This document shows positions 16,401 through 64,000 of a DNA stretch of 64,000 bases, piece after piece. The notes beneath the pieces are model-generated. The model saw nothing but the letters and a program-made list of their open reading frames with translations. It was not told where the DNA came from and made no database searches. Numbering within the stretch: the stretch's first letter is position 1; each line of letters starts with the position of its first letter. Source of the DNA: Mizuhopecten yessoensis. Its lineage: Eukaryota. The translations under genes were made by a program, and so were the position numbers. The DNA is taken from positions 344,005 to 408,004 of the forward strand of contig NW_018405900.1 in the NCBI RefSeq assembly GCF_002113885.1, written 5' to 3'.

Positions 16401-17125
16401 CAAATATGTTTTGAATAAACCTAAAGCTGTGCCAGTGAAACCTCAACCCGCAACCAGGGCTGCTCCTTCCAGGACTGGACTGACAAGGTCTAATTCTGTT
16501 GTAGTAAAGTCAGCAATCAAACCTGGTAAGTTTTCACTAGATACAGTGTCTGGAAAAAACAGAGTGCTTCATCCCCAAATAATTTTCCTTTATCTCTATT
16601 GTGATATTGTTTCCATGATCTTTTGGTTCAATTTTCTTGTAGTCCGTTTAGGCATATAACATTGTCTATAACTGTCACTGGCTTAGGTGGAAATTGTTCA
16701 ATGCCTATGTTTTGCTAATTTTGGAATTATTATAAAAGGAATTGATAAGTTTATGTCATAATTATCACTTAATTATATATTGTGTATATGTATTTTATAA
16801 GCCAGTGATAAATATACTATGAGCCTTGAGTCCTTTACTCATAGACCTTTGATAAGATTCATAGAAGTTCTGAAAACACTTAAATTCAAAGTTGTGGGAT
16901 CCATTGTTTTTAGCAATACAATTGAAAAGGACACATGAAAATAAATTGTAAATTGCCCACTGTAAGCCCGCCAAAAGCTGAGCGTGTCAATGTTATTGCA
17001 TTGTCCATCCATTTACTTAACCTTGTGGCCACAAACATTCCCACAATTTTAACAGAATTTTTTGAGAATTTGTGTGTGATGAGAATGGAATGAAGATTTG
17101 CATGTGATATTATATATTAATGTGT

Positions 17126-17161
<36 letters not shown>

Positions 17162-23100: not shown

Positions 23101-26100
23101 CTGACTAACCTTACACTTGTCACAGTGGAAACAGACACACAGGTGTTACATTCTGGGTCACCACTGTTATTGGCACTGACTAACCGTACCCTCGTCACAG
23201 TGGAAACAGACGCACAGGTATTACATTCTGGGGCACCACTGTTATTGTCACTGACTAACCTTCCCCTCCTCACAGTGGAAACAGAACACAGGGATTACAT
23301 TCTGGGTCACCACTGTTATTGTCCCTGACTAACCTTACCCTCAGCACAGTGGAAACAGAACACAGGTCTTACATTCTGGGTCACCACTGTAATTGTCACT
23401 GTGACTAACCTTACATTTGTCACAGTGGAAACATACATACAGGTATTACATTCTGGGTCACCGCTGTTATTGTCACTGACTAACCTTCCCCTCCTCACAG
23501 TGGAAACAGAACACAGGGATTACATTCTGGGTCACCACTGTAATTGTCACTGTGACTAACCTTACGGTGGAAACAGACACACAGGTATTACATTGTGGGT
23601 CACCACTGTTATTGTCACTCTGACTAACCTTACCCTCGTTACAGTGGAAACAGACACACAGGTATTAAATTCTGGGTCACCACTGTTATTGTGACTGACT
23701 AACCTTACACTTGTCACGGTGGAAACAGACACACAGGTATTAAATTCTGGGTCACCACTGTTATTGTGACTGACTAACCTTACACTTGTCACGGTGGAAA
23801 CAGACACACAGGTATTAAATTCTGGGTCACCACTGTTATTGTGACTGACTAACCTTACACTTGTCACAGTGGAAACAGAACACAGGTATTACATTCTGGG
23901 TCACCACCGTTATTGTCACTGACTAACCTTATCCTCATCACCGTGGAAGCAGAACACAGGTATTACATTCTGGGTCACCTCTGTTATTGTCACTGTGACT
24001 AACATTACCCTCGTTACAGTGGAAACAGACACACAGGTGTTACATTCTGGGTCACCACTGTTATTGTGACTGACTAACCTTACACTTGTCACGGTGGAAA
24101 CAGACACACAGGTATTGCGTTCAGGGTCACCGCTGTTATTGTCACTGTGACTAACCTTCCCCTCATCACAGTGGAAACAGAACACGGGTGTTGCATTCTG
24201 GGTCACCACTGTTATTGGCACTGACTAACCGTACCCTCGTCACAGTGGAAACAGAAGCACAGGTATTACATTCTTGGTCACCACTGTTATTGTCACTGAC
24301 TAACCTTATCCTCATCACCGTGGAAGCAGAACACAGGTATTACATTCTGGGTCACCACTGTTATTGTCACTAACTAACCTTACCCTCGTCACAGTGGAAA
24401 CAGACACACAGGTATTACATTTTGGGTCACCACTGTTATTGTCACTGTGACTAACCTTACCCTCGTTACAGTGGAAACAGACACACAGGTATTACATTCT
24501 AGGTCATCACTGTTATTGTCACTATGACTAACCTTACACTTGTCATAGCTCATATTGATGCAAACACATTATACTTAGGTTGCTCTAGTGAGTGTACAAA
24601 AATACAACTTCAGATTTCATATGTGTGGTAACTTTATCTTTACTGAGATATGATGTTCATAAGGAGGATATTCCTGATATGGTTGATTGTGATAAATGTC
24701 AATTAGAGTATGTTTATTCTTAAGTCTCAAATCTACAAACTGCAGCAAGTAGAGTATGTTTGAGGATAAAGTCACTAGATGATATAATTATAATCGTTTC
24801 TCACGAGTCAAATAGCTTATATTCCATAACACATATATCAAAGTGAAAGTAGTATTTAAGATGTGGGAAAATTCAATGTAAGACATGACAAAGTAATGCA
24901 AGCGTGATATTGACTGGTATTAATGTCATGCCACCCTTTAAAGCAGTTCAATAAAAATAAAACATACTTGCTTGGCATTGCTTTTCAGGTCAAAGGTCTA
25001 GATCATGGTGACATTTCTTTTTTTTATTTATTTATTTCAATCCAACAGCATAAGGCCCACTTACAGGGTGATAACAAATAACAGTTTACAATCAATTATA
25101 TATTACAATATCACAGACCCAATGTTAAATTATCAAACAATACAGACTATGTTTAATGAATTAAAAAAATATCTGTTTTATTTCTGTTTGAAACATTTAG
25201 TGATCCGCTAAAAAGACTACCTGGCTGAACATTGAGGAAGTTAAATTTTCTGACACCTAATTAAAACGCTGTTTTTCCTTATGTCCATACGACTCTTGGT
25301 GGGATAAAAAACGCACCATACAGCTGAACTTATGATACCTGTTTGGAACCATTAAATTGATTTGTTCAATAAAATATGGACAGTCGAACATACTGTTTTC
25401 ACACAAGAGGTGGTAAATTCAAATTTCTTCATAAGATAAAACATCACAGTCAATCTTTGCTTCAAAGCATGAACATTTTAAGAAATTTTCTCTCAGAACT
25501 ACTTCTAATTGATGTGCCAGAGTAGTTCGATATGGACACCGTATTTCACAAACATATTCTAGTTTGCTTTTGACCATACTAATATATAAAGAATGGATGA
25601 CAGATGTATCAGAAAAAAATCTACATGTATGTTTTAGGAAGCCAAATGTTTGCATTGCCTCGGATACCATTTTTTTTATGTGAAGATTAAAATTAAAAGT
25701 AGATGACATCCATAGGCCAAGGTTGTTGATACAAACAGAAAACTGTTGGGATTGCTTTTCAGATTCAAAAGTTAAGGTCACTGTTAGTATAAATAGTAAC
25801 TTGGCTTCTGTGTGACAACTCACTTGGCCAATATAATTCAAACTTCATAGACTGCATATACCAACCAAAAGTTCTTGCATGGAATTGCCTTTTAGCTTTA
25901 AAGGTCAAAGGTTAGGATCACCTACTGAAAATTGAGCATAACATTCTGAACCATACAAATATCTCAGCACAGTATCAGAAATCAAACCATTGTAGTGATC
26001 TACAATACTTAAGTATAGGTCATTGTTTGACACGCTATAACTATTTCCATAGATCACCTCTTTGCTGAAGAAAGCCTCACACAACAGAGCTGTTGCAGAG

Positions 26101-29100
26101 ACCAAGTGTAATGAACACTCGTCCCGGAGTCACAGTGTGTTACGACTCAAACTGACCGGAGAAAACTCACTCAGTGGAGAGGCTTGTGTTGGTCAGTAGT
26201 ATTCAGTGACAAAGCTTGTCATATTTGAATTTTAAAATTCACCATTTGATAGAGGAAATTAATAGTTGCCCATTGGAAAACATATTTATTTCACAAGTGT
26301 CACAGAAAACCAATGTTTTTACAAGTAGGCCCATAAGTAAGAAAATTGAAAGTATTCTAATACACACAAAAAACTGCCCCATTGCATTTTCCAATAAATT
26401 GATGTTTTAACTGGGTTTTTTGTAATGTTATATTGGTATATATGATGTATAGTTTCATTATATGACACATTCTAAAGGGAGATGCTTGATCCATTTCAAA
26501 CAGCTTATATTAGCATTTATTATTCATAACAAACTGGTGAATCTCAATCCGAATCTTTTCAGGGCACAACACGTTTGTATCAAGATTTTCCAATAGTAAT
26601 TATATACAGGTACTAACCCTATTTGATTCCAGATTATATACAATGATTAATTTACCCTACTTGACTCCTCCTGTACAGGAACTCTAAATTTAGTTGACCT
26701 GGCAGGGAGTGAAAGACTGAAGGAATCGGGGTCAGAAGGTCAGCGACTGAAGGAGACTCTCAGTATCAACAAAAGCTTGAGTACTCTAGGAAATGTCATC
26801 ATGGCCCTCGGTAACAAGGTAAGGGACGCTGAGTATCAACAAAAGCTTGAGTACTCTAGGAAATGTCATCATGGCCCTCGGTAACAAGGTAAGGGACGCT
26901 GAGTATCAACAAAAGCTTGAGTACTCTAGGAAATGTCATCATGGCCCTCGGTAACAAGGTAAGGGACGCTGAGTATCAACAAAAGCTTGAGTACTCTAGG
27001 AAATGTAATCATGGCCCTCGGTAACAAGGTAAGGGACGCTGAGTATCAACAAAAGCTTGAGTACTCTAGGAAATGTCATCATGGCCCTCGGTAACAAGGT
27101 AAGGGACGCTGAGTATCAACAAAAGCTTGAGTACTCTAGGAAATGTAATCATGGCCCTCGGTAACAAGGTAAGGGACGCTGAGTATCAACAAAAGCTTGA
27201 GTACTCTAGGAAATGTCATCATGGCCCTCGGTAACAAGGTAAGGGACGCTGAGTATCAACAAAAGCTTGAGTACTCTAGGAAATGTAATCATGGCCCTCG
27301 GTAACAAGGTAAGGGACGCTGAGTATCAACAAAAGCTTGAGTACTCTAGGAAATGTCATCATGGCCCTCGGTAACAAGGTAAGGGACGCTGAGTATCAAC
27401 AAAAGCTTGAGTACTCTAGGAAATGTAATCATGGCCCTCGGTAACAAGGTAAGGGACGCTGAGTATCAACAAAAGCTTGAGTACTCTAGGAAATGTCATC
27501 ATGGCCCTCGGTAACAAGGTAAGGGACGCTGAGTATCAACAAAAGCTTGAGTACTCTAGGAAATGTAATCATGGCCCTCGGTAACAAGGTAAGGGACGCT
27601 GAGTATCAACAAAAGCTTGAGTACTCTAGGAAATGTCATCATGGCCCTCGGTAACAAGGTAAGGGACGCTGAGTATCAACAAAAGCTTGAGTACTCTAGG
27701 AAATGTAATCATGGCCCTCGGTAACAAGGTAAGGGACGCTGAGTATCAACAAAAGCTTGAGTACTCTAGGAAATGTCATCATGGCCCTCGGTAACAAGGT
27801 AAGGGACGCTGAGTATCAACAAAAGCTTGAGTACTCTAGGAAATGTAATCATGGCCCTCGGTAACAAGGTAAGGGACGCTGAGTATCAACAAAAGCTTGA
27901 GTACTCTAGGAAATGTCATCATGGCCCTCGGTAACAAGGTAAGGGACGCTGAGTATCAACAAAAGCTTGAGTACTCTAGGAAATGTAATCATGGCCCTCG
28001 GTAACAAGGTAAGGGACGCTGAGTATCAACAAAAGCTTGAGTACTCTAGGAAATGTCATCATGGCCCTCGGTAACAAGGTAAGGGACGCTGAGTATCAAC
28101 AAAAGCTTAGTACTCTAGGAAATGTCATCATGGCCCTCGGTAACAAGGTAAGGGACGCTGAGTAGCAACAAAAGCTTGAGTACTCTAGGAAATGTAATCA
28201 TGGCCCTCGGTAACAAGGTAAGGGACGCTGAGTATCAACAAAAGCTTGAGTACTCTAGGAAATGTAATCATGGCCCTCGGAACAAGGCAAGCTCTGAAGC
28301 AGTGTCAACAGGAGTTTGAGTACACTAGGTAATGCCGATGGTTATATGTTAGAGTATACACAAGGAAATGTTATGATTAGGTAAGGTCTGCAGCGTTTCA
28401 GTACTACAATGTAATTGTAATTTTCAGTATGACACCCTAGTTTCCTAGAGCCAAAACAGAAGGAAATGTAATCATGGTCATTGGAATGTTACATTGAGGT
28501 TTATTCACTGTCTCTGCCCTCTGAGATAATTTCTGTAGGTACTTATATACTATAGCCCAAATAACCTAATACACATACATGTATGTAGGCATTGGTCATG
28601 TAATGAAACAAAACATCAATCACAAATTACTGTAAAATAGACAGTTTTTTTAATTGTACATGAACTTCAAAACTCAAGTTTATTGAAAAATATTTGGGTT
28701 ACAATATTGATAGTACAGTTTGTGCATGTATTGAAAAGAAACTTTTATTTTTAATACCGATTGATATGAATTATTCTTCATCATTAATAGAGATATATTT
28801 GTGTTTCAGGATAACCATATTCCCTACAGGAACTCCAAGCTGACGTATCTTCTTCAGAACTCACTGGGTGGTAACAGCAAAACCCTTATGTTTGTCAACG
28901 CCTCCCCCAAGGAGGAATGCTTTCAGGAAACACTCAACTCCTTACGTTTTGCAACCAAGGTAACTTACATTTTTTCCTTTTACCTAGAACATATTGTCAA
29001 TTTATTTCATTTACGTCACAAATGTGGAATAGGAAGAACTTATTAGCTGCTAAATCTGTCATTTCTGATATCATGTGCAAAATGTTCCAGGGATGGTTGT

Positions 29101-29423
29101 ATGGCTACATATGTGCTCCAGAGTTAGATGTCAGAATGGTTTTATGTCGCAGGGGGGAATGAATATCTGTATGCCCCAAAATTAGATGAATGGCTGTATT
29201 CTCTAGGCTGGAGCAAGTGGATATATGTCCTTTGGTTGAGGGACTGTTTATATTTCTGAGAGTTTGGTGAATGTATATACAATGCAATATACATACCCTC
29301 AGATTGGGTGAATAGTCTCCCTCAGGGTTCTGTTGTTTTACCTCCTACAGTGCCAGTAATACTATCTGTTTTTTGCAGGTGAACCAGTGCAATATTGGTA
29401 CTGCCCAAAAGAAATCAAAATGA
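10448..29423 (+). CDS. KIFC1: Kinesin-14, C-terminal motor (KIFC1/HSET/XCTK2/Ncd-like), complete, 15 coding exons, ~742 aa
   Basis: Exons: 10448-10456 (MSQ, least certain), 14045-14164, 16231-16525, 17987-18085, 18522-18774, 19218-19428, 19845-20012, 20406-20552, 21134-21247, 21584-21757, 22227-22391, 26053-26191, 26679-26818, 28810-28959, 29379-29423 (2229 nt, phases consistent). Basic Ser-rich tail, [12 protein letters not shown] motif, coiled coil, neck [24 protein letters not shown]-loop GQTGSGKT, switch I NEHSSRSH, switch [33 protein letters not shown], ending [14 protein letters not shown]. Confidence 0.95.
12685..12810. repeat. Imperfect long hairpin, probable non-autonomous element fragment
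   Basis: GGCAGTAACAATTTGTTTTTC...GTAAGTAAGAAGTTTAAAT pairs with ATTTTAACTTCTTACTTAC...GAAAAAACTGTGACTGCC. Confidence 0.55.
13003..13378 (+). mobile_element. Partial copy of the hairpin-headed non-autonomous element family also at 63075-63609
   Basis: Shares AAACTTGCTATATCC...CCCAT.CTT.A.C.GTTTTATTATAC.GATACA.AC and the terminal AAGTAGAGGTATAATAA with the 63-kb copy. Confidence 0.6.
14160..15658 (+). repeat. 39/40-bp minisatellite anchored on the KIFC1 exon 2 donor, ~37 copies
   Basis: Unit ACGAG|GTAAATAATGGAGTTAAAACATGATTACCACCAAC. The first copy is the real junction at 14164/14165. Confidence 0.95.
18890..19035. repeat. Imperfect long hairpin element
   Basis: ACAATTGTTTCAATGCTATTTGGGGAACA pairs with TGTTCCCAAAATATCCATGAAACAATTGT. 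Confidence 0.6.
22351..24545 (+). repeat. 75-bp (74-77) minisatellite spanning the KIFC1 exon 11 donor, ~29 copies
   Basis: Unit is the last 41 nt of the exon (TGACTAACCTTACCCTTGTCACAGTGGAAACAGACACACAG) plus GTATTGCATTCTGGGTCACCACTGTTATTGTCAC. Starts at 22351, 22426 and 22501. Confidence 0.95.
25225..25730 (-). mobile_element. Non-LTR retrotransposon 3' fragment (CR1/L2/Jockey-like, post-RT region)
   Basis: ORF 25419-25841(-) contains [37 protein letters not shown]...[13 protein letters not shown]...LEVV, a typical C-terminal region of these LINEs. Confidence 0.7.
26762..28286 (+). repeat. 70-bp near-perfect minisatellite spanning the KIFC1 exon 13 donor, 22 copies, with a 140-bp higher-order period
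   Basis: Unit is the last 57 nt of the exon (AGTATCAAC...GGTAACAAG) plus GTAAGGGACGCTG. Copies alternate AATGTCATC and AATGTAATC. Confidence 0.97.
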
Positions 29424-46712: not shown

Positions 46713-47749
46713 ATGCCCTACAGCTGACGCATGTAAGGTAACCTAATCAATGAGCGTCTTTTACACATCTATCAGCAAGCAGATTTCTCCAACATAAGCA
46801 ACTGAAGCTGTGTTTGTATCTGTTATCAAAACTATCTATCAATTTATCATTAAGTGATCCTAATTATGGATGTTTGTACCAAAGTTTTTGTCGGACATAG
46901 ACTTAAGTAGTTGTTTTTGTGTATGTGTTTTTTGTTTTAAATTGGGGGGGGGGGGGGGGGGGGGGGGACACTGTAGTCGATATAACAAAGTCTTATTTCA
47001 GCTCTGTGTATGGTTCCAAATGTGCTGCACATTATCTGGGAAAAAAGTATATTCAGTGCTCATTCATAATAATGAGTTTTTTGTAGTAATTCTAAATGTA
47101 TATGTTCCAACAAGATACAAGAAATTTTATTCAACGTTGCATACAGGTAAACAAGGAACATTAGCTCTTGAGAGCTATNACAAGACAAGATACAAGAAAC
47201 TTTATCTAACGTCGCATACAGATAAACAAGGAACATTAGCTCTTGAGAGCTATTATTGCGACAAACATATGTAAAAATAACAATAACATATTATATTACA
47301 AGTAAAGGGAGATACTCACATATATTAATAATAAAACAGTAATAATCATCACAGAAAAAGAAAGTATACATATCCAAGGTTTCTAAGTGATTCCAGCTGC
47401 AATTTCTATATATAGATTTAATATTAAATGGACAAGTTCATGCTTCAAATCCAATTTAAATATTGGAACCTTTTAAGAGCCATTGGCTACATTACACAAA
47501 AAATGGTTACAAACCATAAGGTAGTACACAAGAAACAATGATTACTGTAACAAAAACATGATCAAATAGATCTCCTGCTCATTGTAATGTTCGTTACACT
47601 TTAATTATCATTCCAGTACTGTGCTACACCTTTGGATTCAAGACTCAAATAAAGAGAAATTGACTAAAATAGGAACCAGAGTCCTACTATGTTACTAGTA
47701 TTTGTCTGGTAAGGTGGAATTAGAGATTTTATACCAACACTCCACCACA

Positions 47750-50700
47750 ATGACAGAAGTCAACGTACGAGTAGCAGTGAGGGTAAGTAATTATCTCCAG
47801 TTATTTAGATATTTAAAGTATAACAGTGTTTGTATCTTGGCTCTCCAGCTAGTTTTCCATTGGTTATATAGCATACTTTAAGCATGCTTGTAGATGTATC
47901 CTGTTTTGACAGTCCTCTTCGTTAACAAGTATTTATTAATGTAGACAGTAGTGTGGTTGCTGTAAGATTATAGTGGGCAGCTACAGAGAAAGCTCAGTTG
48001 AGATCTTTTTTAACCTCCAAATCAACTCTGTCTTTTCATGCACACATAAATGTAATGACAAAAAATCTTGATCATTTGTTAATACTAATGTCACTATTTC
48101 TGGTATCAACTCATCATATAGTTGACTATTTCTAATGGACTATAATGTAAACCGAATTAAAATAGGAGAAAAAATCTATGAAACCAGTTGCTGATTGTGT
48201 AGTTTTGTAAAGTTAGTGCTTGATAAAATCATTACTAATTCATTGATATGATCATGATGCCTTTGCTGTAAAACATGTGAATAAACTTTCAGGTACGCCC
48301 TCTGCTGCCAAAGGAAAAGATAGCTGGAGAGGAAATGTGTTTGAGAGTCTTACCTAATACAAAGCAGGTGGTTGTTGGCAAGGATCGGGCCTTCACCTTT
48401 GATTATGTGTTGTCCTCCAAGACTGATCAGGTTTGTGTTAAACTTGTTGTCATAAGTTGATCATATTTGTTTTAAGAGCTGTATGACTACAGACTGCAGT
48501 ATAGGGATCCCCACATAATTCATAACCCTAACAGTGTTCATGTATTCTTCAGAGAACTGGGATGAAGGAGTCAGCATCTTTTCAACCTCACAAAATTTAT
48601 GTTTTTATGAAAATCTTTCTAGTGGATACCTGAAGGTCCTAATGGAAACCTGTAGGTCCTTCAGGTTTTTCTGTTGCCCAATTTAGTTTTACAGTTTGGT
48701 CTGTTTTTATCTGTACAGGAGGAAGTTTACAAGTCTTGTGTGGAGTCGCTGGTTAAGAGTACCTTTGATGGCTACAACGCCACAGTATTTGCGTACGGTC
48801 AGACGGTAAGATATTCGTATAAATACTGGTTTATATATGATGACAAATAACCTTTCATATAGTATGATGAAAATGTAATTATGTAACAAATTTTTTAATA
48901 GCAGTTTTTAAAATTATCACAAAAGCAAGAAATATTAATCTTGCTTTTCAAGCATTTCTGTATGTGTATTCCCATAATTTTTTTCGGATCCATACACCTA
49001 CCCAGTATTCCATGTATGATAGAGCTAAAATGTGTAGTCATGTCTTGGATGTTTTTTTCTTCAGTTTTCCATTTTTTTCTCTGATTTCAGGGATCAGGGA
49101 AGACGTTCACTGTTGGAGGGGGAAATATTTCATGTGAAGAAGAATATGGGATAATACCTCGAGCTCTTAAGGAAATATTTGACACTATAGAGGTAATATT
49201 TGACACTATAGAGGTACTATGAGGAACTATTTGACACTATAGAGGTAATATTTGACACTATAGAGGTGATATTTGACAATATAGAGGTACTATGAGGTAC
49301 TATTTGACACTATAGAGGTAATATTTGTCACTATAGAGGTTATATTTGACACTATAGAGGTACTATGAGGTACTATTTGACACTATGGAGGTACTATTTG
49401 ATACTATAGAGGTGATATTTGACAATATAGAGGTACTATGAGGTACTATTTGACACTATAGCGGTAATATTTGATACTATAGAGGTACTATTTGACACTA
49501 TAGAGGCAATATTTGACACTATAGAGGTAATATTTGATACTATAGAGGTGATATTTGACACTGTAGAGGTACTATGAGGTACTATTTGACACTATAGCGG
49601 TAATATTTGATACTATAGAGGTACTATTTGACACCATAGAGGTACTATTTGACACTATAGAGGTAATATTTGATACTATAGAGGTGATATTTGACACTAT
49701 GGAGGTACTATGAGGTACTATTTGACACTATAGCGGTAATATTTGATACTATAGAGGTACTATTTAACACCATAGATGTTCTATTTGACACTATAGAGGT
49801 ACTATTTGATAATATAGAGGTACTATTTGATACTATAGAGGTGATATTTGACACTATGGAGGTACTATGAGGTACTATTTGACACTATAGCGGTAATATT
49901 TGATACTATAGAGGTACTATTTAACACCATAGATGTTCTATTTGACACTATAGAGCTACTATTTGATACTATAGAGGTACTATTTGATACTATAGAGGCA
50001 CTATTTGACACCATAGAGGTAATATTTGACACTGGAGGTAATATTTGACACTATAGATGACACTATAGAGGAGATAGTTGACACTATATAGGTGATATTT
50101 GACACCATAGAGGCGATAGTTGACACTATATAGGTGATAGTTGACACTATAGAGCTAATATTTGACACTATCGAGGTAATATTTGACACTATAGAGGTGA
50201 TATTTGACAATATAGAGGTACTATGAGGTACTATTTGACACTATGGAGGTACTATTTGATACTATAGAGGTACTATTTGACACCATAGTGGTAATATTTG
50301 ACACTGGAGGTAATATTTGACACTATATAGGTGATATTTGACACTATAGAGGTACTATTTGATACTATGGAGGTACTATTTGATACTATAGAGGTGATAT
50401 TTGACAATATAGAGGTACTATGAGGTACTATTTGACACTATAGAGGTAATATTTGTCACTATAGAGGTTATATTTGACACTATAGAGGTACTATGAGGTA
50501 CTATTTGACACTATGGAGGTACTATTTGATACTATAGAGGTACTATTTGATACTATAGAGGCACTATTTGACACCATAGAGGTAATATTTGACACTGGAG
50601 GTAATATTTGACACTATTTAGGTGATATTTGACACTATAGAGGTACTATTTGATACTATGGAGGTACTATTTGATACTATAGAGGTACTATTTGATACTA

Positions 50701-53700
50701 TAGAGGCACTATTTGACACCATAGAGGTAATATTTGACACTGGAGGTAATATTTGACACTATTTAGGTGATATTTGACACTATAGAGGTACTATTTGATA
50801 CTATGGAGGTACTATTTGATACTATAGAGGTGATATTTGACACTTTAGAGGTACTATGAGGTACTATTTGACACTATAGAGGTAATATTTGTCACTATAG
50901 AGGTTATATTTGACACTATAGAGGTACTATGAGGTACTATTTGACAATATAGAGGTACTATTTGATACTATAGAGGTACTATTTGACACCATAGTGGTAA
51001 TATTTGACACTGGAGGTAATATTTGACACTATAGAGGAGATAGTTGACACTATATAGGTGATATTTGACACTATAGAGGTAATATTTGATACTATAGAGG
51101 TTCTATTTGTCACCATAGATGTTCTATTTGACACTATAGAGGTACTATTTGATACTATGGAGGTACTATTTGATACTATAGAGGTGATATTTGACACTGT
51201 AGAGGTACTATGAGGTACTATTTGACACTATAGCGGTAATATTTGATACTATAGAGGTACTATTTGACACTATAGAGGTGATATTTGACACTATAGAGGA
51301 GATAGTTGGTACTATGAGGTACTATTTGACACTATAGAGGTACTATTTGATACTATGGAGGTACTATTTGATACTATAGAGGTGATATTTGACAATATAG
51401 AGGTACTATGAGGTACTATTTGACACTATAGAGGTAATATTTGATACTATAGAGGTACTATTTGACACCATAGATGTTCTATTTGACACTATAGAGGTAC
51501 TATTTGATACTATAGAGGTACTATTTGATACTATAGAGGTACTATTTGACACTATAGAGGTAATATTTGACACTGGAGGTAATTTTTGACACTATAGAGG
51601 TGATATTTGACACTATAGAGGAGATAGTTGACACTATATAGGTGATATTTGACACTATAGAGGTACTATTTGACACTATAGAGGTACTCTTTGATACTAT
51701 AGAGGTACTATTTGATACTATAGAGGTACTATTTGACACTATAGAGGTAATATTTGACACTATAGAGGTGATATTTGACATTATAGAGGAGATTGTTGAC
51801 ACTATATAGGTGATATTTGACACTATAGAGGTAATATTTGACACTATATAGGTGATATTTGATACTATAGAGGTACTATTTGATACTATAGTGGTACTAT
51901 TTGACACTATCGAGGCAATATTTGACACTGGAGGTAATATTTGACACTATAGAGGTGATATTTGACACTATAGAGGAGATAGTTGACACTATATAGGTGA
52001 TATTTGACACTATAGAGGTAATATTTGACACTATAGTGGTACTATTTGATACTATAGAGGTACTATTTGACACCATAGAGGTACTATTTGACACCATAGA
52101 GGTACTATTTGACACTATAGAGGTACTATTTGATACTATAGAGGTAATATTTGACACTGTAGAGGTAATTTTCGACACTATAGAGGTAAATTCTTTTTGA
52201 TTAATTGAAGTACCATATTATCTTACCCTGATAAGATGGATGTATTTGTCTGTGATGCTTGGTTCCTGGCTGGGCCCTTCCTGATTGGTTTGTGTTCTAC
52301 TTCTTGTACAAATCTGACTCCCAAATCATTTATGATTAGCAAGCATATATCAGATTGATGTACTGATTTCTGGTACTCCTGTTCATTTTCTTCCTTGAAA
52401 GGAAACAGGTGACAAGCTTATTAACACTACAAAATGTTCCCCATATGGCAATCAAGAAAACCATTTCAGTGACAATAACTAAGTCTACTTTCATTTAGTT
52501 CAATGTAGGCAGAAGATAGTTAAGTATACAAAGACACACCTGTATTGATTTCCAAAATATTCCTCATAAATCAAACATCTTTCTTGTATCAGACGAGGAA
52601 AGAGCAAGAGTTCCTAGTGAAGGTTTCCTATATAGAGATTTACAAGGAGGAGCTGCAGGATCTGCTAGACACAGAAACATCCTACAAGGATCTCCATGTC
52701 CGTGAGGATGACAAAGGCAACACAGGTAACCATCCTACATGATACAATGATAAGTTTCTCAAAGCGCAGAGAATCAGTCTTATTATCAGTGAATGTTGTC
52801 CTTGAAGTCAACTTTTAACTTCAAGATTTTTCAAATAAGGTGATTTATAACCAAACAATTGTAAACTCTTATACATTTTTGTGTATTGTTGTGAAATTTT
52901 AACTGTTGATAACTCCTCAAGTCTTCTCACTTAAGCAACCAAACAGTTATGTTGGAGTTGAATCTTAAAACACAATAGTTATTATGGTAACTGTTAAATT
53001 TAATCAACAAAGTTATATATAATTGCAGTGATTATTGGAGCCCGTGAAGTGGACTGCGAGTCCCTGGATGATGTGATGACGTTACTGGAGGCAGGGTCTG
53101 CTGTCAGACAGACAGGGTCGACACAGATGAATGAACAGTCAAGTCGCTCACATTCCATATTTACCGTTGTTATAGGTACATGTCAAAGTCATATGATACA
53201 CTCTTTACAGCTGCATACATAAAGGATCTGTCATTCGTTTCCCTTTATATTAGATTTATGATAAAGTTTTAGATTTTTCATGACTGTGAGCCTCTGGTGA
53301 TCAAATATGAAAAATCCAAAACGAGTATCATAAATCTAATATGAAGGGAAACGAATGACAGATTCTTTTTATCATTAAATACAAAGTAAACTGTATAATT
53401 GTGAACAGAAACAAATATTTTGCATTAGACAGCCTCTAAAACGATGAAAATTGCATCCACTTCACAATGATGTGATGTCACATTGATTGTTCCTATTTGA
53501 TTGTGACGTCATTTCCGGAGTGATATTACACATGTTACATAAACATAACTTATGGGATGGCTTGTTGACACTGCATAACACAGTATTCATATGGTAAAGC
53601 AAAATAATACATTGTAGGCACAAATTGCTACCTGATTTCTAGTTAGTTTCATCAGTCCAGTCGTGAGTTGTAAATGTACGAATGAAGATCAACTGTTATT

Positions 53701-56700
53701 ATATTTACCTGATATACTTGAGTAAATTTGTTTTAGCTGAAAAGGTCCAATCTTGTAATTTAAAGAACTTTTTTTCAAGTCAACTTTGCATAAAAATTAC
53801 CAGTATGAAAGCTGTCCGTAGTATGGTTTTGGATTCGTGTCTCTCCGTACATTGATGGTCACTAGTGAACATGTTGTTCTTATTGCTTTATGAACAGAAC
53901 AAAAGTGGACAGAGACTGACGTCATGGCTGGAAAGAGAAAACCAAGTGATAGTTCTGAGGTTATTGACGAAGGTAAGTGGTACATTGTACGTAGTAATCT
54001 GATTATGTTCCAGTTCTGTTTGTTGTTATATAAATTACTTCAATTTTAGATGTTTACTAGGGAACATTTTTCCAAATGAACTGAGACATATATTTATTTA
54101 ATTTGCTACAATTGAGGAATTCATGACAATCCTTGTCAGCAGTAATCATATTTAAGCAGTTTTTGTGCTAATTTGAAAGTGCTAAATTAATTTCAAATAT
54201 GAAATCACCTATCCTTTCTACTAGAAAGCTATAGTGCTATACCATAATGTGTTTAATTAGAAAATTGTTGCTGATGAGTAGATGTCTGTGTGGTAATCAA
54301 TGAATGCTTACAGTATTCAATATAAAACAAAAATCAGTTTCCTTGATTTTGTGATTGAACACTTAATTTATGAAATGTTTATATTCATTTTTAAGGTAAA
54401 TAAGCTGATTTTGACTAAGTTATTGTTATTTGTTGGATAAGAGCAAAGGAAAATAAAATTAATTAAGATTATTGCATGTATAATAGGAAACTCAGTTTTG
54501 TTAATGTTTATTCCTTTAACTTGGATTGCATGGCCGTCTGTATTTCAGCTGCCAAACTACCACAAGGTTTGTGTATTAGTTGCCTCCATTTTGATTTGTG
54601 TTGCACTTTGGTATAATAAGTATGTTGCATAATTAATGCTAATGTTGTTTCTTTAGATTATTTCTCGCTTGAAAGATTAACAGCGTGTTAGCAAATTTTC
54701 GATAGGTGGCTAAAACCAGGTCCTCCTCTTGTATTAGGTGTTCTGCATCACATTGGCAAAGTCCTTAAATGGCTTGAATTGTCAATGGGCTACAAAACTT
54801 TACAAAAACAAGCTATTTGCAATATTGAACATCATTCTGATGGTTCATCTGTACCAATCATTCGGATGGTTCATCTGTACCAATCATTCTGATGGTTCAT
54901 CTGTACTGATGGTTCATCTGTACCAATCATTCTGATGGTTCATCTGTACCAATCAATCTGATGGTTCATCTGTACCAATCATTCTGATGGTTCATCTGTA
55001 CCAATCATTCTGATGGTTCATCTGTACCAATCATTCTGATGGTTCATCTGTACCCAAGTGATTCTGGACATGAAGTCTCCTGTTAGCATGTTTGTTTTAG
55101 TTTAAGTCTACTGTATTTCTGACAATTTTAGAGATGTAGGCTTCTAAACATAAAGATAGGGGCAATGTTAATGTCAAAATCTTTCATGAGAATTCTTTTT
55201 TGATAAATAAAGAAAAACATAGAAATAAAGAACAGTTGAAACTGTCCATAGTATAAACAAATGAGTGTAAAATACAGGACTGGTATTTTATGATAGTATA
55301 TTAAGACTTACCTATTTCATTTTAACCCAAACCTTTTCTTGCCATACACTGTCTACTTATCTGATACTTTGTCTCCTCTTCACCGTTTTTGTCTTTATCT
55401 ACTCCCCGGAAACTCATACACCAACTCCACACCACCCTACGCTGCCTGGCGCCACTTTTAATATGAGTCTTGAGGTCTGACACAAACCGTTTTTATATTG
55501 GTCTGAGGTCTACCTTACTATATTATCAGCCTTTAGGTATGACATATGTAGACTCTGGGTCCATAGTCTGAAACAAGTCAATCAGGGTCAGAGGTCTGAC
55601 AAAAATTAAACTGACCATTGCTTCCCGATCACCACACAATATTTTTTCAGAACACTGATACTGATTCAAGTACATGTACTTCAATACTGGCTTAAATAAA
55701 ACAGAGAATAAAATCTGTTACCCTTTAACTCTTTTTGTGTTTGAAATAAAGATTATTAGATATAATCTGTGCTTTCAGCATTATTACTGCCTCAGAAAAT
55801 GATTTGTCTGGACCATTTTTTTTCTCTGTACACTGTATTAACCCTTTCACCACTGTAGACCAGAATGGACTCATCCAGATAAATGTATGGTAGAGTCTAC
55901 TTAAGTTACCTAGGGGTGAAAGGGTTGAGTAGTTGATTGTTCAATGTACGTGTAAAATGGTATGCTGTATTTTAGATTCAAATGTATCTACAGTTGTTGA
56001 TGATTTTTATACTAGTTGTTGATTTAATTTCACCGGGTCCTGTCCTCACAATATATAGCACATACATTTGTGTATGTCTTAATCATGAGGTAATTGTGGT
56101 TACAGAAACAAACAGCCTCTGTACGTTATGTTCGGGGGAAAATGTACACAATATAGATCCAGTGACCAGAACGGGTTGTTGGGGAGAATATGTCGGCAAC
56201 CTGTAGATGTTAAGTCATTAACAACTAGATTTTTGTAGAATTTTGTTGTTAACATCAGTGTTAGATTAGGTACATGTACTGTCTTTAGTTTCGATAAATA
56301 CTGCTTTTACATATTTTCTTTTCTTTTACTAATTTTTGTTGATAGATAAACACAGAAAATTCAGTCATGTGACCCTGATTTTAGAATCATACTCTGTGAA
56401 CGTTCTATTTGGTGACATGTACATAAAGATACTACAGCTTTATTACAGCGACTTCAAAAGCCAGACAACCCCATTAACATAATATAGGACACACACGTTT
56501 ATCGTTGTTGTTTACCATTCACTTTTGTTCATATAAGAATACACTGAGTTTGTAACCTTAAACTGATCCTATTCTGCACAAGTAAAATTATTTTTTTACC
56601 CTTTGACTTTGAACTAACTGAAATAAATTAACATTTTGAGAGCACACATTTGGTCATTTCAATTCCGTCATTTCGTATTGCAGAGTTATCTGCTCTTTTG

Positions 56701-59700
56701 AGCAGGTAACGATTGTTACGTCATTTGTTTGTGAGACTAACGTTTTTTGAACATTTTTGAGAAAGCAACCTAATTTTCTTACACAAACCAATGACGGAAC
56801 AATCAATACCTGCTCACAAGAGAAGATAACTCTGCAATACGTAAAGATGGAATATACCGGTAACAATTTTCTTGTGTCCTTGTTTTTTCTTTGAATTTAA
56901 AAGAGTGACAATCGAGATATGAAATCTAAGCAATGTGTTTGATTGACTATGGATATAAATATGAACACCGTGACATTGAGTGACACATTGAGGGAACGGC
57001 AGTGGCACCTCTTTAACAACACCGGGATACATACAGATTCAGTGAACTACTCTTCTACTTTCTAACTAGAGGAACTGCTTTCTTAGAAACGTATTCTAAC
57101 AAAAGGAAGTACTGTCGTAGAAGTATATTCTACGTAGGATCATCCTCGATATCCAGGGGTTATGCTCACTTTCGCTCTCTGCACCCCTGATATATGTCAT
57201 ACCAAAATTGAAGGCTCTTTGTGAACCGCCATGTGCATGAGAAGTGATGACTAGTTTGATCCTTTCATGTACATCAAAGGAATCCTGCAGTAATCTAAGG
57301 GTAAAACGTTCTGGCTTTGAAGTCTGTCGTCGCTCCTCTGAATCTCCAACAAGATTAAGCATCAGCCTAGTGATTGGTCAGGATTATTTTACCTGACACC
57401 AATCAAATAGCTAGCCGCGTGCCTTCAATTTTGCTATGACATATTCCATGGGTGTAGAGAGCGAAAGTGAGTGTATCCCCTGGGTATCGAGGATGCAGTA
57501 GGAACCTCTGTGCTAGAAACATATTCTAAAATTAGTGACTACTGTCCAAGAAACAGATTCTAAAATCAGTGACTACTGGCCAAGAAACAGATTCTAAAAT
57601 CAGTGCCTACTGTCCAAGAAACAGATTCTAAAATAAGTGACTACTGTCCAAGAAACAGATTCTAAAATCAGTGACTACTGTCCAAGAAACAGATTCTAAC
57701 AATAAGGACATCAGTGGTGGATTAATATGGAAAGAAAATTAAAAGAAATTCTTTCAATCTTTTCAGATATTACTCACTTCATGTCAGGAAAATTCCATTT
57801 TGTGGATCTTGCGGGATCTGAACGAGCACACAGGACCGGAAATGTAGGGGACAGATTCAAAGGTACAGTTCTTACCCACTCAAGTTTAATTTTGACCAAA
57901 ATCAGAAAAACGACCTGACCCCCAGTAGGGGCAGGCGACACATCCTGGCTGCATGCACTTCTGTGGAGTTCTTTTCATGTATCATAGAATGATTTTATGA
58001 ATTATATTGGATGCTTTATAAATATTGTACATTTCATATTATTATTTATTATAAATCTATTGCTGCAGAGTCTGTGCACATCAACTCAGGACTTCTGGCC
58101 CTCGGCAATGTGATAAGTGCCTTGGGAGATCCTAAGAAGAAATCAACCCACATTCCCTACCGAGAATCAAAGATCACCAGGCTCCTCAAGGTGTGTGTAA
58201 CTATGGCGCCACAAAGAGGTTCTTCTGGAACAGTGATAGATAGGAAGTCAATAGTCTAGAAAATGTTTTATGGTTAGGAACAAATTACCAGGGTATAGTG
58301 AAAAATAGATACATTTGAGCTCGCAGAGCAGTTTTTGCAGAAGGTACCTGTTGGGAACCTGAAGTTCTGCGTTATATATATTTCAGTGTTAAAATCTTTT
58401 ATCAATATATCATGCTAATATTAATGGTGTAGGGCCGGCGCCGGGTCTCAAACTCACTTAATCATCTTTCTACAAAAATGAAAAGAAACCTGCACAAACG
58501 GAAGATAAAATATTTTCGGAGATACATATAGGCACTGCTTATTTAATTAGACAAAGACAATTTCATTTAACAAAAGTGGCAGTTAGGACATGTTTCACTT
58601 AAAGGTTTTTTTGGTGAAGTGACCTTTTTTGTTGATTTATGTTCCAGGACTCCCTAGGGGGTAACGCACAGACCCTTATGGTGTGTTGTATCAGTCCTGC
58701 TACAGCCAACTTTGATGAATCCCTAAATGCCCTCAAGTATGCCAATAGGGTAAGTGAAGCCGATGATAGATATTAGGATATTGTTCCTTTTACAGTGAAT
58801 ATCGGCATATAGTTTCAATAATGAGTACTCGGGGTAGTTTTATATCAGTATCATATCTACCTGTATAATGTTCTGTCGTGTCTCTTAAATTCATGATGTT
58901 TCGTTGTTAATGACACAAAAACAGTTGCTACACTGATGAACAAATTGTTTGTACTTCTCTGTAGAAAATATATATCAAAATATTTGTATATGAACAACTC
59001 TGTGAACAGGCCAAATTATCTTGTCCCAGGGGTGTCGTGTTAGAATACAGTTTAAATGTTTAGTTTCCTTTTTTGAGGTAAATGGAAGTGTTTTTTTCCT
59101 TTTAACAAATCACATCTTCTGGGTGAAGCAAACAGGAAAGTTGATTTGCCACTTACCTCACACTCAGAAAAAATGTAAACAATTCAACAGACGACTGAGT
59201 ATGGTTGATATGGCAAAGAGTAAGCTTATATCTAGGCCTATACTTACAGCAGAGAAAACTTATATCTAGTCCTATGCTTAAAGCAGAGTAACCTTATATC
59301 TAGGTCTATACTTACTGTAGAGTAACCTTATATCTAGGTCTATACTTACTGTAGAGTAACCTTATATCTAGACCTATACTTACAGCAGAATAAGCTAAAT
59401 ATATCTCATCTATTACTTACAGGCACGGAACATCAAGAACAAGCCGATCGTAAACAGAGATGTACAGGCACTGAGGTTTGAGGAGATGCAGTGTGAGATT
59501 AAGGTACCACCATTTATATACAGTGTCACACAGGACTGTCATACAACAATGCCACACAGACCTGTCATACAACAATGTCACACAACAATGTCATACAGAA
59601 TTAATAAACCTCTACTTTATTTACTCTCTATAAAAGTAATTGGTTAAATCGAATATATAATATCTAGTCCTATACTTAAAGCAGAGTAACCTTATATCGA

Positions 59701-62339
59701 GGCCTATACTTACAGCAGAATAGGCTAAATATTTCTCATCTATTACTTACAGGCACGGAACATCAAGAACAAGCCGATCGTAAACAGAGATGGCAGAGTA
59801 ACCTTATATCTGGTCCTATACTTACAGCAGAGAAACCTTATATCTAGTCCTATACTCACAGCAGAGTGAACTTATATCAAGTCCTATACTTACAGCAGCG
59901 TTACCTTATATCTAGGCCTATACTAACAGCAGAGTAACCTTATATCGAGGCCTATACTTACAGCAGAATAGGCTAAATATTTCTCATCTATTACTTACAG
60001 GCACGGAACATCAAGAACAAGCCGATCGTAAACAGAGATGTACAGGCACTGAGGTTTGAGGAGATGCAGTGTGAGATTAAGGTACCACCATTTATATACA
60101 GTGTCACACAGGACTGTCATACAACTATGTCATACAGGACTGTCATACAACAATGTCACACAGGACCTTACAGCAGAGTGAACTTAGATCTAGTCCTATA
60201 CTTACAGTAGAGTAAACTTATATCTAGGCCTATGCTTACAGCAGAGTAACCTTACATCTAGGCCCATACTTACAGCAGAGTGAACTTATAACTAGTCCTA
60301 TACTTACAGCAGCGTTACCTTATATCTAGGCCTATCCTTACAGCAGAGTAAGCTTATCTCTAGTCCTATACTTACAGTAGAGTAACCTTATATCTAGTTC
60401 TATACTTACAGCAGGGTGACCTTATATCTAGGCCTATACTTAAAGCAGAGTAACCTTATATCGAGGCCTATACTTACAGCAGCGTTACCTTATATCTAGG
60501 CCTATACTTAAAGCAGAGTAACCTTATATCTAACCCTATACTTACAGCAGAGTGAGCTTATATCTAGTTCTATACTTCCACCAGAGTAAACTTATATCTA
60601 GTTCTATAATTACAGCAGAGTAAACTTATATCTAGTTCTATAATTACAGCAGAGTAAACTTATATCTAGTTCTATACTTACAGCAGGGTGACCTTATATC
60701 TAGGCCTATACTAACAGCAGAGTAACCTTATATCTGGTCCTATACTTACAGCAGAGAAAACTTATATCTAGTCCTATGCTTACAGCAGAGTAACCTTACA
60801 TCTAGGCCCATACTTACAGCAGAGTGAACTTATATCTAGTTCTATGCTTACAGCAGAGTAACCTTACATCTAGGCCCATACTTACAGCAGAGTGAACTTG
60901 TATCTAGTCTTATACTTACAGCAGAGTGACCTTATATCTAGTCCTATACTCACAGCAGAGTAACCTTATATCGAGGCCTATACTTACAGCAGCGTAAGCT
61001 TATATCTAGTCCTATACTTACAGTAGAGTAAACTTATATCTAGTTCTATGCTTACAGCAGAGTAACCTTATATCGAGGCCTATACTTACAGCAGAGTCAC
61101 CTTATATCTAGTCCTATACTCACAGCAGAGTGAACTTATATCAAGTCCTATACTTACAGCAGAGAAAACTTATATCTAGTCCTATGCTTACAGCAGAGTA
61201 ACCTTACATCTAGGCCCATACTTACAGCAGAGTGAACTTAGATCTAGTCCTATACTTACAGTAGAGTAACCTTATATCTAGACCTATACTTACAGCAGAG
61301 TAAACTTATATCTAGGCCTATACTACAGACTATATTATGGCAAAGAGTAAGCTTATATCTAGGCCTAAACTTACAGCAGAGTAACCTTACATCTAGGCCC
61401 ATACTTACAGCAGAGTGAACTTATAACTAGTCCTATACTTACAGCAGAGCGAACTTATATCTAGTCCTATAATTACAGCAGAGTAACCTTATATCGAGGC
61501 CTATACTTACAGCAGCGTTACCTTATATCTAGGCCTATACTAACAGCAGAGTAACCTTATATCGAGGCCTATACTTACAGCAGCGTTACCTTATATCTAG
61601 GCCTATACTACAGACTATATTATGGCAAAGAGTAAGCTTATATCTAGTCTTATACTTACAGCAGAGTGATCTTATATCTAGTCCTATACTCACAGCAGAG
61701 TGAACTTATATCAAGTCCTATACTTACAGCAGAAGAAGCTTATATCTAGTCTTATACTTAAAGCAGAGTAACCTTATATCTGGTCCTATACTTACAGCAG
61801 AAGAAGCTTATATCTAGTCTTATACTTACAGAGTCCTATACTTACAGCAGCGTTACCTTATATCTAGGCCTATCCTTACAGCAGAGTAAGCTTATATCTA
61901 GTCCTATACTTACCGCAGAATAAGCTTATATCTAGTCTTATACTTAAAGCAGAGTAACCTTATATCTGGTCCTATACTTACAGCAGAGCGAACTTATATC
62001 TAGTCCTACACTTACAGCAGAGTAACCTTATATCGAGGCCTATACTTACAGCAGAATAAGCTTATATCTAGTCTTATACTTACAGCAGAGTGAACTTATA
62101 TCTAGTTCTATACTTACAGCAGAGTAAACTTATATCTAGTCCTATATTTACAGCAGAGTAAACTTATATCTAGTTCTATACTTACAGCAGAGTAACCTTA
62201 TATCTAGTCCTATACTTACAGCAGAATAAGCTAAATATTTCTCATCTATTACTTACAGGCACGGAACATCAAGAACAAGCCGATCGTAAACAGAGATGTA
62301 CAGGCACTGAGGTTTGAGGAGATGCAGTGTGAGATTAAG
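47750..62339 (+). CDS. KIF27: Kinesin-4, KIF27/KIF7-like, 5' part (motor domain and neck); gene continues beyond the window
   Basis: Exons: 47750-47782, 48293-48430, 48719-48805, 49091-49192, 52593-52725, 53029-53175, 53898-53972, 57767-57862, 58069-58190, 58648-58749, then an 81-nt exon present at 59423-59503, 60001-60081 and 62259-62339. Translation: [19 protein letters not shown]...GKDRAFTFD...[23 protein letters not shown]...[17 protein letters not shown]...[18 protein letters not shown]...[14 protein letters not shown]...[46 protein letters not shown]...[14 protein letters not shown]27 and KIF7 cannot be separated with certainty. Confidence 0.9.
49175..52189 (+). repeat. 21-bp minisatellite spanning the KIF27 exon 4 donor, roughly 135-140 copies
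   Basis: Unit ATATTTGACACTATAGAG|GTA (IFDTIE|V). The first copy is the real junction at 49192/49193. Recurrent 9-nt CTATGAGGT-type inserts occur. Confidence 0.95.
53220..53372. mobile_element. Long hairpin head of a non-autonomous element
   Basis: ATCTGTCATTCGTTTCCCTTTATATTAGATTTATGATA pairs with TATCATAAATCTAATATGAAGGGAAACGAATGACAGAT. Confidence 0.7.
54833..55054. repeat. 26-bp minisatellite (TTCTGATGGTTCATCTGTACCAATCA), ~8.5 copies
   Basis: Read directly. Confidence 0.9.
55842..55924. mobile_element. Tiny piggyBac-like MITE (83 bp)
   Basis: TTAA|CCCTTTCACC...GGTGAAAGGG|TTGA: CCC-starting TIRs with a TTAA-like target site. Confidence 0.6.
56671..56844. mobile_element. Fold-back MITE-like element
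   Basis: CGTATTGCAGAGTTATCT.CTCTT.TGAGCAGGTA...GATTGTT.CGTCATT.GTTTGTG is present as an inverted pair. Confidence 0.7.
57141..57495. mobile_element. Second copy (inverted) of the 554-906 MITE
   Basis: Same CATCCTC...GAGGATG TIRs, with the internal sequence as reverse complement of the first copy. Degenerate 9-bp TSD acgtaggat/cagtaggaa. Confidence 0.8.
57515..57700. repeat. 34-bp minisatellite (AAGAAACAGATTCTAAAATCAGTGACTACTGTCC), ~5 copies, with older degenerate copies left of the MITE
   Basis: Read directly. Confidence 0.85.
59215..62235 (+). repeat. 34-bp minisatellite (AGAGTAACCTTATATCTAGGCCTATACTTACAGC) interleaved with copies of a KIF27 exon
   Basis: Dozens of copies. Each ends TACTTACAG, the same as the true acceptor TATTACTTACAG|GCA. 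Confidence 0.95.
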
Positions 62340-62601
62340 GTACCACCATTTATATACAGTGTCACACAGGACTGTCATACAACAATGTCACACAGGACTG
62401 TCATACAACTATGTCATACAGGACTGTCATACAACAATGTCATACAGAACTCATACAACAATGTCATGCAGGACTGTCATGTAGGATTGTCATGCAGGAC
62501 TGTCACACAGGACTGTCATACAACAATGACACACAGGACTGTCATACAACAATGCCACACAGGACTGTCATACAACAATGTCACACAACAATGTCATACA
62601 G

Positions 62602-62925
62602 AATTAATAAACCTCTACTTTATTTACTCTCTATAAAAGTAATTGGTTAAATCGAATATATATCCCCACTTTTGCCTGACTGTGTTTTAGTCCTGTGTGT
62701 TAGTCTGCAGGGAACTAAAACACACCTTCTGAACTAAAACACACCTACACTTGGGTGTTTCCGCCAAGCCAATTAGGCGAGAGGTGGGCAGAACTTGTAA
62801 CCGAACTCGGTGTGACACGCAAGATGGGCAGAGCTTGCTACCAAACCCGGAAGCGGCGTGCAAGGTGTTTGATTATGACGCTGTCAAGCTATACAGCTTA
62901 TGGTTTACAGATATTTTCTAGTTAA
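62602..62925 (-). mobile_element. Partial inverted copy of the 63075-63609 element
   Basis: Reverse complement of ~63259-63608 (CCTCTACTTTATTTACTCT...CCCCACTTTTGCCTGACTGTGTTTTAGTCC...TACAGCTTATGGTTTACA). Confidence 0.8.
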
Positions 62926-63074
62926 ACAGGACTGTCTTACAACAATGTCATACAGAACTATCACACAACAATGTCATACAGCACTAACACACAACAATGT
63001 CATACAGAACTATCAAACAACAATGTCATACAAAACTAACACAACAATGTCATACAGAACTATCACACAACAAT

Positions 63075-63609
63075 GTTATTATACAGTTAAAGTATGGGGT
63101 TGAGGGATATAGCAAGTTTCTGGTTTCCCGAGACCAGGTCTATTTCCCGAGGCGTCGCCTCGGGAAATAGGCATGGTCAAGGGACACCAGAAACTTGCCA
63201 TATCCCTCAACCCCATACTTTCACCGTTTTATTATACCGATACACACTGGAGAGATAGTTTTAACTAGAAATCATTTGTAAACCATAAGCTGTATAGCTT
63301 CACGTCCTATCTACCCTTGATCACAGTAGAGCCAAACATGCTTCCGAGTTCTGTAGCAAGCCCCGCCCACCTCGCGCGTCGCTTCCGAGTTCGGTAGCAA
63401 GCTCCGCCCACCTCGTGCATCGGTTCCGAGTTCGGCAACAAGCTCCGCCCGCCTCCCGCCTGATTGGCTCGGCGGAAACACCCGAGTGTAGGTGTGTTTT
63501 AGTTCCCAGACTAACACACAGGACTAAAACACAGTCAGGCAAAAGTGGGGATATATTCGATTTAACCAATTACTTTTATATAGAGTAAATAAAGTAGAGG
63601 TATAATAAA
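63075..63609 (+). mobile_element. Hairpin-headed non-autonomous element (TTATTATAC...GTATAATAA), possibly Crypton-like
   Basis: The ~75-bp-arm hairpin at 63077-63237 is centred on CCCGAGGCGTCGCCTCGGG. TTATTATAC occurs at the start and after the hairpin, GTATAATAA at the end. The interior has 39-bp GC-rich subrepeats. The superfamily is an inference. Confidence 0.65.
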
Positions 63610-64000
63610 CAGAACTATCACACAACAATGTCATACAGAACTAACAAACAACAATGTCATACAGAACTAACACACAACAATGTCACACAGGACTGTCATA
63701 CAACAATGTCATACATAACTACCATACAACAATGTCACACAGGACATCACAACAATCACACAACAGTAGTACAACACTGCCACACTGTAGTCTCACAATG
63801 ATCTTAACACTTCTTCAAGGGGGAGACACACATTTCCTATCCAGGTGATAACTCGAGTTCTGACAGCCTGATTGCTTTCAACTTCTTGTGTTGATAAAAT
63901 GTGCCAAGAGTGACATCTCCTTGCATTTCTTTTCCATTCATTTCCCCATCTCTGTATTCTCACCTCAGAGGATGCTACCTTCTGCTGTTTACTACATGTT

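What the first reader, a model, noticed from the sequence alone, without database searches (positions are those of the whole stretch)
59423..62339. KIF27 neck-linker exon present as three identical, splice-competent copies plus one truncated copy
Seen: the 81-nt, phase 0-0 exon [27 protein letters not shown] occurs identically at 59423, 60001 and 62259. Each has the acceptor TATTACTTACAG and the donor GTACCA. A 5' half copy lies at 59753-59792. All are embedded in the 34-bp satellite. Known: neck-linker length controls head-head coordination in N-terminal kinesins. Inference: satellite-mediated unequal exchange duplicated the exon, and including two or three copies would keep the frame and repeat the neck linker. 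Misassembly of a repeat-rich heterozygous region is a real alternative.
Basis: partly seen in the sequence, partly recalled or inferred. Interest (0 to 1): 0.7.

Follow-up and report, generated by a model that had tools for sequence, protein, structure and literature searches.

The report
Tripled scallop kinesin exon, likely misassembled
This scallop genome assembly shows one short exon of a kinesin motor gene three and a half times inside a repeat grown from the exon's own splice signal, but transcripts and DNA from other animals show it once, so the extra copies are likely an assembly error or one animal's private mutation rather than a new motor design.

Summary
The exon encodes KIF27 residues 352-378: motor end, neck linker and start of the neck coil. 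The 34-bp repeat is real in 4 of 4 other DNA runs and was found only in this intron; its unit resembles the exon's splice acceptor. The isoform idea is not supported. In 3 of 4 RNA runs one unbroken contig passes the exon once. One of 4 DNA runs holds it in a single unbranched contig at about single-copy depth; the other 3 were uninformative. The joins are blunt, so unequal exchange between repeat units does not explain them. Best reading: gap-filling error in a fragmented assembly (0.5); close rival: a real rare allele (0.42); regular isoform 0.06. The assembled animal's own reads could not be tested. Repeats seeded at splice sites are common here (8 of 22 arrays straddle donors, 1.8 expected), known from human F7, and noted by this scan elsewhere in this genome.

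The parts
47750..64000 (+). 5' part of the KIF27/KIF7-type kinesin-4 gene (36 coding blocks in all, running on to extended coordinate 90709 beyond the window)
   Evidence: P0033 maps block by block at full identity; Pfam Kinesin 11-355
58648..58749 (+). Upstream exon (KIF27 318-351), spliced to the neck exon
   Evidence: GT..AG joint skipping 673 nt in 4 of 4 RNA runs
59197..59385 (+). First units of the 34-bp minisatellite
59386..59422 (+). 37-nt acceptor region, alignable end to end with the 34-bp unit
59423..59503 (+). Copy A of the neck exon (KIF27 352-378)
   Evidence: its acceptor variant fits the contig of DNA run X7
59504..59659 (+). Donor, three 26-bp units and the left end of the inverted-repeat element; ends at join J1 back into the 34-bp repeat
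59753..59792 (+). Half copy B: acceptor and 40 nt, no donor; blunt join J2 into the repeat; reading on meets a stop after 38 codons
60001..60081 (+). Copy C of the neck exon; followed by 26-bp units and blunt join J3 at 60166/60167
60167..62221 (+). Main 34-bp array; most units end like the real acceptor (44 TACTTACAG in 59190-62258)
   Evidence: found only here in G000
62259..62339 (+). Copy D of the neck exon, the only one followed by the complete downstream intron
62356..62603 (+). 26-bp array
62604..63608 (+). About 1-kb element with long inverted ends, MITE-like (label recalled, not tested)
   Evidence: arms; summed contig depth of 7,600-15,000 on its left end in DNA runs

Best explanation
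The scallop KIF27 gene likely has one neck-linker exon, preceded by a real 34-bp minisatellite that resembles the exon's splice acceptor, and the extra two and a half copies in this assembly are likely errors made while filling the repeat. Shown: the copies in the assembly, the repeat in other animals, single-exon transcripts in three other animals, a single unbranched exon contig in one other animal, and blunt joins. Inferred: the acceptor region was amplified into the repeat; its look-alike AG sites stay silent because no donor follows them (exon definition, established knowledge); the repeat could not be crossed by short reads, and the filler stitched in 125-275-nt pieces from the array's right edge (exon and what follows), each returning to the repeat by a blunt go-back join such as chimeric or mate-pair junction reads give (recalled property of such libraries, not tested). 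The protein then has one ordinary neck.
For: RNA runs X11, X13 and X16 (3 studies) each give one contig running 58749 > exon > next exon, unbroken at both exon edges, depth 19-28; no go-back joint at the exon listed in 4 of 4 runs. DNA run X7 holds acceptor, whole exon and donor in one 219-nt contig, with no break at the half-copy position, at depth 7.3 against 12.1 for the shared flank and 3.8 and 6 for its two alleles; 3.5 copies would put it several-fold higher (depth is a rough guide only). In X5 a contig fitting 60098-60163 goes on into 26-bp units like those behind copy D instead of the 34-bp repeat (table 5c). Repeat contigs lie at 20-32 times flank depth in X1 and X3, while no 31-mer occurs more than 8 times in the assembled array, so the assembled array may be short or the array varies widely. 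G000 is in 82,659 pieces, yet 58 of 59 arrays of 500 nt or more in 513 kb have no N, which suggests gap filling (inference); duplicates beside single Ns occur nearby. Both annotated proteins have one neck, and 83 of 84 relatives with a neck match have one.
Against: No read of the assembled animal was seen, so nothing here tests its own DNA. There is no N at any join. Blunt joins are not what a walk along overlapping words makes, so the error needs chimeric reads, three times. The pattern is rare (1 of 3 clusters in 513 kb), so it is no habit of the assembler. Copies B and C share 113 nt with a private acceptor change, as descent from one another would give. Only 1 of 4 DNA runs was informative on the exon. 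Contigs drop rare forms, so a minor isoform would be missed.
Confidence: 0.5

Rival explanations
1. The structure is real DNA but a rare or private allele: an unstable minisatellite captured its right flank several times by non-homologous template switching. Copies A, C and D have identical splice sites and introns of 497 and 2177 nt between them, so they would by default be joined in frame and give a KIF27 with two or three tandem necks in that animal only.
For: No N at the joins; three distinct blunt joins; B and C share a private change; this gene amplifies exon edges often (5 donor arrays); repeat depth varies from 3.5 to 32 times flank among four runs, so the locus is unstable.
Against: It needs three non-homologous joins within about 500 nt with no change in any exon copy; X7 shows a single copy; an in-frame triple neck in a conserved motor would likely be selected against (inference).
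Confidence: 0.42
2. The copies are common in the species and give a regular isoform with a repeated neck linker that changes head-to-head coordination.
For: In-frame 81-nt exon with intact splice sites; neck length matters in kinesin-1 and -2 (passages of 10.1101/772327).
Against: Single-exon contigs in 3 RNA studies; single copy in X7; no doubled neck in 152 proteins, the one double match being a 274-residue repeat in a record marked as contaminated. In vertebrate KIF7, changing the extended neck did not change motility.
Confidence: 0.06
3. The two alleles of a diploid were simply laid one after the other.
For: Such duplicates beside single Ns occur in this scaffold; copy A differs from the others at one acceptor base that X7 shares.
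Against: Two alleles give two copies, not three and a half with three acceptor variants, and there is no N. It can explain copy A at most.
Confidence: 0.02

Closest known systems
Human F7 intron 7 37-bp VNTR (Borensztajn et al. 2006, PMC1557585; abstract and outline seen)
   Same: A minisatellite made from an exon boundary, leaving a row of look-alike splice sites that normally stay silent. The 8 donor arrays in the two kinesin genes here are of just this type.
   Different: F7 repeats a donor downstream of the exon; the 34-bp repeat resembles an acceptor and lies upstream, and here whole exon copies interrupt the array. Silence of the decoys was tested in F7, not here.
Intragenic tandem single-exon duplication (e.g. 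dystrophin; recalled, search listing only)
   Same: Identical exon copies with identical splice sites that would be joined in tandem.
   Different: Those are shown in patient DNA and RNA; here the copies are seen in one assembly only.
False duplication in gap-filled or heterozygous regions of assemblies (search listing; passages of PMC8848313 on inaccurate gap closing, which concern long-read tools)
   Same: Identical local copies inside a repeat, not seen in other animals.
   Different: No N and blunt joins here; not the usual two-allele overlap.
KIF7/KIF27 kinesin-4 subfamily
   Same: Host gene: N-terminal PF00225 motor 11-355 and KIF21A-like stalk domains; named KIF27 by its sources.
   Different: KIF7 versus KIF27 orthology was not tested with a tree.

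Membership tests
KIF7/KIF27 kinesin-4 | N-terminal kinesin motor with kinesin-4 type stalk | tested here: met
   PF00225 at 11-355, PF25764 at 737-921; top full-length hits are named KIF27 or KIF7
KIF7/KIF27 kinesin-4 | The exon encodes the neck linker | tested here: met
   Residues 352-378 follow the Pfam motor end at 355; weak alignment to OSM-3 325-350, E 0.71; assignment of linker and coil start is from established knowledge
Splice-site minisatellite (F7 type) | Repeat unit holds a copy of a real splice site next to the exon | tested here: met
   The 37-nt acceptor aligns end to end with the unit and shares its last 9 nt; 44 such ends
Splice-site minisatellite (F7 type) | Array is real and varies among individuals | tested here: met
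   Repeat contigs in 4 of 4 DNA runs at 3.5-32 times flank depth; length itself not measured
Splice-site minisatellite (F7 type) | Decoy sites are silent | tested here: inconclusive
   Only the true acceptor is joined in 4 of 4 RNA runs, but contigs drop rare forms and the laid stretch held only the first units
Functional tandem exon duplication | Copies present in DNA of independent individuals | tested here: inconclusive
   X7 single copy; X1, X3, X5 gave no cover on the exon
Functional tandem exon duplication | Transcripts with two or more copies | tested here: not met
   Unbroken single-exon contigs in 3 of 4 RNA runs, the fourth ends inside the exon; holds for the major form only
Mutually exclusive exon array | Diverged copies and a block on joining neighbours | tested here: not met
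   Copies are identical; introns of 497 and 2177 nt and a length divisible by 3 give no block
Assembly false duplication | Source reads show single-copy depth and no junction support | not testable with these tools
   Only contigs of other animals were served

The most novel reading that the evidence does not exclude
A minisatellite born from a splice acceptor has captured its own exon, creating a real segregating scallop allele whose KIF27 transcripts carry two or three tandem neck-linker and coil-start modules: a natural neck-length variant of a ciliary kinesin and a live example of splice-site repeats seeding exon duplication.
Probability: 0.2. Interest if true: 0.5.

Novelty: not a real feature. 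Interest (0 to 1): 0.17.

Why it matters
As it stands it matters little: the working gene likely has one neck, and the part that is surely real, a minisatellite made from a splice site, is a known kind. The novelty label follows the best reading at only 0.5; if the allele is real it would be a new member of a known kind (tandem exon duplication). Two things are worth keeping. Repeat-filled introns of this assembly should not be trusted for exon copy number. And tandem arrays in these two genes start at splice donors far more often than chance (8 of 22, 1.8 expected; post hoc, two genes), which raises the question why scallop minisatellites arise or survive at exon ends.

Tried and rejected
Holes in DNA contigs (a hole proves nothing): the bins that a contig across J2 (59728-59773) or J3 (60188-60233) would reach have no depth in 4 of 4 runs, and no listed piece bridges J1, where loose ends go on into the normal element; only 32 of 237 pieces were shown. 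The exon had no cover in X1, X3 and X5; likely causes are my 95% setting or contigs that fit two copies equally (4, 4 and 10 such records), so these runs say nothing on copy number. All 18 runs offered were contigs, no raw or long reads; 8 of 18 were laid. X15's contig ends 27 nt into the exon at depth 3.6: uninformative. Protein search for a doubled neck among shorter proteins: 33 hits among 90 candidates, none doubled; the collection is unlikely to hold such a fragment, so this is weak. 68 of 152 proteins had no neck match and were left out of the 83-of-84 count. Rejected: unequal exchange between repeat units (blunt joins); mutually exclusive splicing (no block, identical copies); use of half copy B (no donor, stop after 38 codons, B-to-C span 329 nt out of frame). 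The limit of 154 nt on exact repeats fits read length but is also set by the variable arrays on both sides, so I give it no weight. Paper searches listed no report of this locus; they cover open-licence papers only. No earlier scan note matched a search on whole-exon copies. No structure was predicted: the protein is of a known family and the question is copy number.

Full report
Observation. The 81-nt exon occurs exactly at 59423, 60001 and 62259 and its first 40 nt at 59753. A search of the own genome finds these four places and no other. All have the same last 12 acceptor bases, and the full copies the same donor. Further upstream the acceptors fall into three variants (A; B and C; D) and the downstream 26-bp arrays differ in all three full copies. 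In 513 kb of the scaffold only 3 clusters of local exact duplicates lie outside tandem arrays; one is beside Ns, one is this, one flanks an inserted element in a later intron.

The gene. P0033, named by its sources as scallop (Mizuhopecten yessoensis) KIF27, maps at full identity in 36 blocks from 47750 to beyond the window. The exon is residues 352-378, right at the end of the Pfam motor domain (11-355); it aligns weakly with the same stretch of OSM-3 (E 0.71). From established knowledge it holds the last turn of helix 6, the neck linker and the start of the neck coil. A second copy would therefore add linker plus coil start, not just linker. Both annotated proteins have one neck, as do 83 of 84 fetched relatives with a neck match.

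The repeat. The 34-bp unit aligns end to end with the 37 nt before the exon and shares its last 9 nt; 44 such acceptor-like ends lie in 59190-62258. A tight pattern search found the unit only in this intron (5 matches). It is present in 4 of 4 other DNA runs. I infer that it grew from the acceptor. This is no one-off: of 22 arrays of 150 nt or more in KIF27 and the upstream kinesin-14 gene, 8 begin inside an exon and repeat its donor, against 1.8 expected (simulated P about 0.0002; post hoc, two genes). The human F7 intron 7 VNTR is the described case (PMC1557585, abstract), two earlier notes of this scan describe such donor arrays elsewhere in this genome (unchecked), and tandem repeats are the largest repeat class in another scallop (21.7%, passages of PMC10225492).

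The joins. Each extra copy returns to the repeat from a different point: the end of an inverted-repeat element (J1, 59659), the middle of the exon (J2, 59792) and the 26-bp array (J3, 60166). J2 and J3 share 0 bases between the two parents; at J1 the script left 9 bases unassigned, which by eye match the repeat. Unequal exchange between repeat units cannot make these, since the repeat lies only upstream of the exon. They need non-homologous template switching in the cell or chimeric joins in the assembly. No N marks them.

Transcripts. Four RNA runs of four studies were laid on 57720-59700, which holds copy A only; the spliced GT..AG joints show that they are transcripts. In X11, X13 and X16 one contig runs through three upstream exons, the neck exon and on into the next exon, at depth 19-28. 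A common exon-to-itself junction would break such a contig at the exon edges (established property of word graphs). None was listed. A minor form could have been cleaned away, and these are not the assembled animal.

DNA of other animals. Four runs of four studies were laid on 58900-60260. X7 has one 219-nt contig with repeat, acceptor, whole exon and donor, unbranched, at depth 7.3 against 12.1 for the shared flank: at most about one copy per chromosome, depth being a rough guide. X5 has a contig that follows copy C's downstream sequence and continues like copy D's intron. X1, X3 and X5 gave no cover on the exon and are uninformative; these holes and those at the joins are listed under Tried and rejected. 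Repeat contigs reach 20-32 times flank depth in X1 and X3 but 3.5-12 in X5 and X7, against at most 8 copies of any 31-mer in the assembly.

Mechanism and odds. Shown: copies in the assembly, a real acceptor-like repeat, single-exon transcripts elsewhere, blunt joins. Inferred: the gene normally has one exon; decoy acceptors are ignored for lack of a donor; the extra copies were stitched in when the array was filled, the assembly being in 82,659 pieces with 58 of 59 long arrays free of N. I put this at 0.5. A real rare allele from a complex repeat mutation is nearly as likely (0.42), because nothing here tests the assembled animal, the joins carry no N, and B and C look related by descent. If real, copies A, C and D would by default be joined in frame. 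A regular isoform of the species is unlikely (0.06). Even then the effect is open: in vertebrate KIF7 neither removing the extended neck nor moving it to kinesin-1 changed motility (10.1101/772327, passages); the KIF27 motility paper was seen only as a reference there.

Verdict. Observation confirmed; interpretation partly supported. The triple exon is likely not a feature of the species, and the real part is a known kind of repeat. Interest 0.17. Supplements of papers were not consulted.

Noticed in passing
window 14160-15657, 22351-24545, 26750-28291: All 3 long arrays in the upstream kinesin-14 (carboxy-terminal kinesin 2-like, P0124) gene repeat an exon end plus its donor: 40 bp x38, 75 bp x29, 70 bp x22. 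The 70-bp array alternates two variants over long stretches and ends in units with single-base losses, which may be gap filling.
   Followed up: partly
window 49184-52189; L001 2256-3231; extended coordinates 81685-82686, 83975-85182, 87927-88862 (L002, L003): Five donor-containing arrays in KIF27 itself; with the kinesin-14 ones 8 of 22 arrays, 1.8 expected. Donor arrays outnumber acceptor arrays 8 to 1.
   Followed up: partly
window 47110-47253: A 75-bp two-copy repeat split by a single N at 47179, the typical look of an overlap left by assembly.
   Followed up: no
L001 8341-9850 (extended 71341-72850): A 172-nt exact duplicate plus a 23-bp array on both sides of an element of about 530 nt that ends in an A-rich tail: a long target duplication or two alleles laid in a row.
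   Followed up: partly
window 62604-63608: Element with nested inverted arms, including a 77-nt near-perfect hairpin at 63078-63232; its end is very abundant in DNA and RNA runs.
   Followed up: no
window 61305-61362 and 61590-61647: A 47-nt variant unit inside the 34-bp array that resembles the array's left flank occurs twice.
   Followed up: no
window 14045-29420 and 47750 onward: A kinesin-14 gene and a kinesin-4 gene lie head to tail on the same strand, 18 kb apart.
   Followed up: no
window 54548-54565: A coding micro-exon of about 19 nt in KIF27 (residues 239-244); X11 and X13 contigs join the exon before it straight to 57765, so it appears to be skipped there, and X15 and X16 contigs run upstream into the intron.
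   Followed up: no
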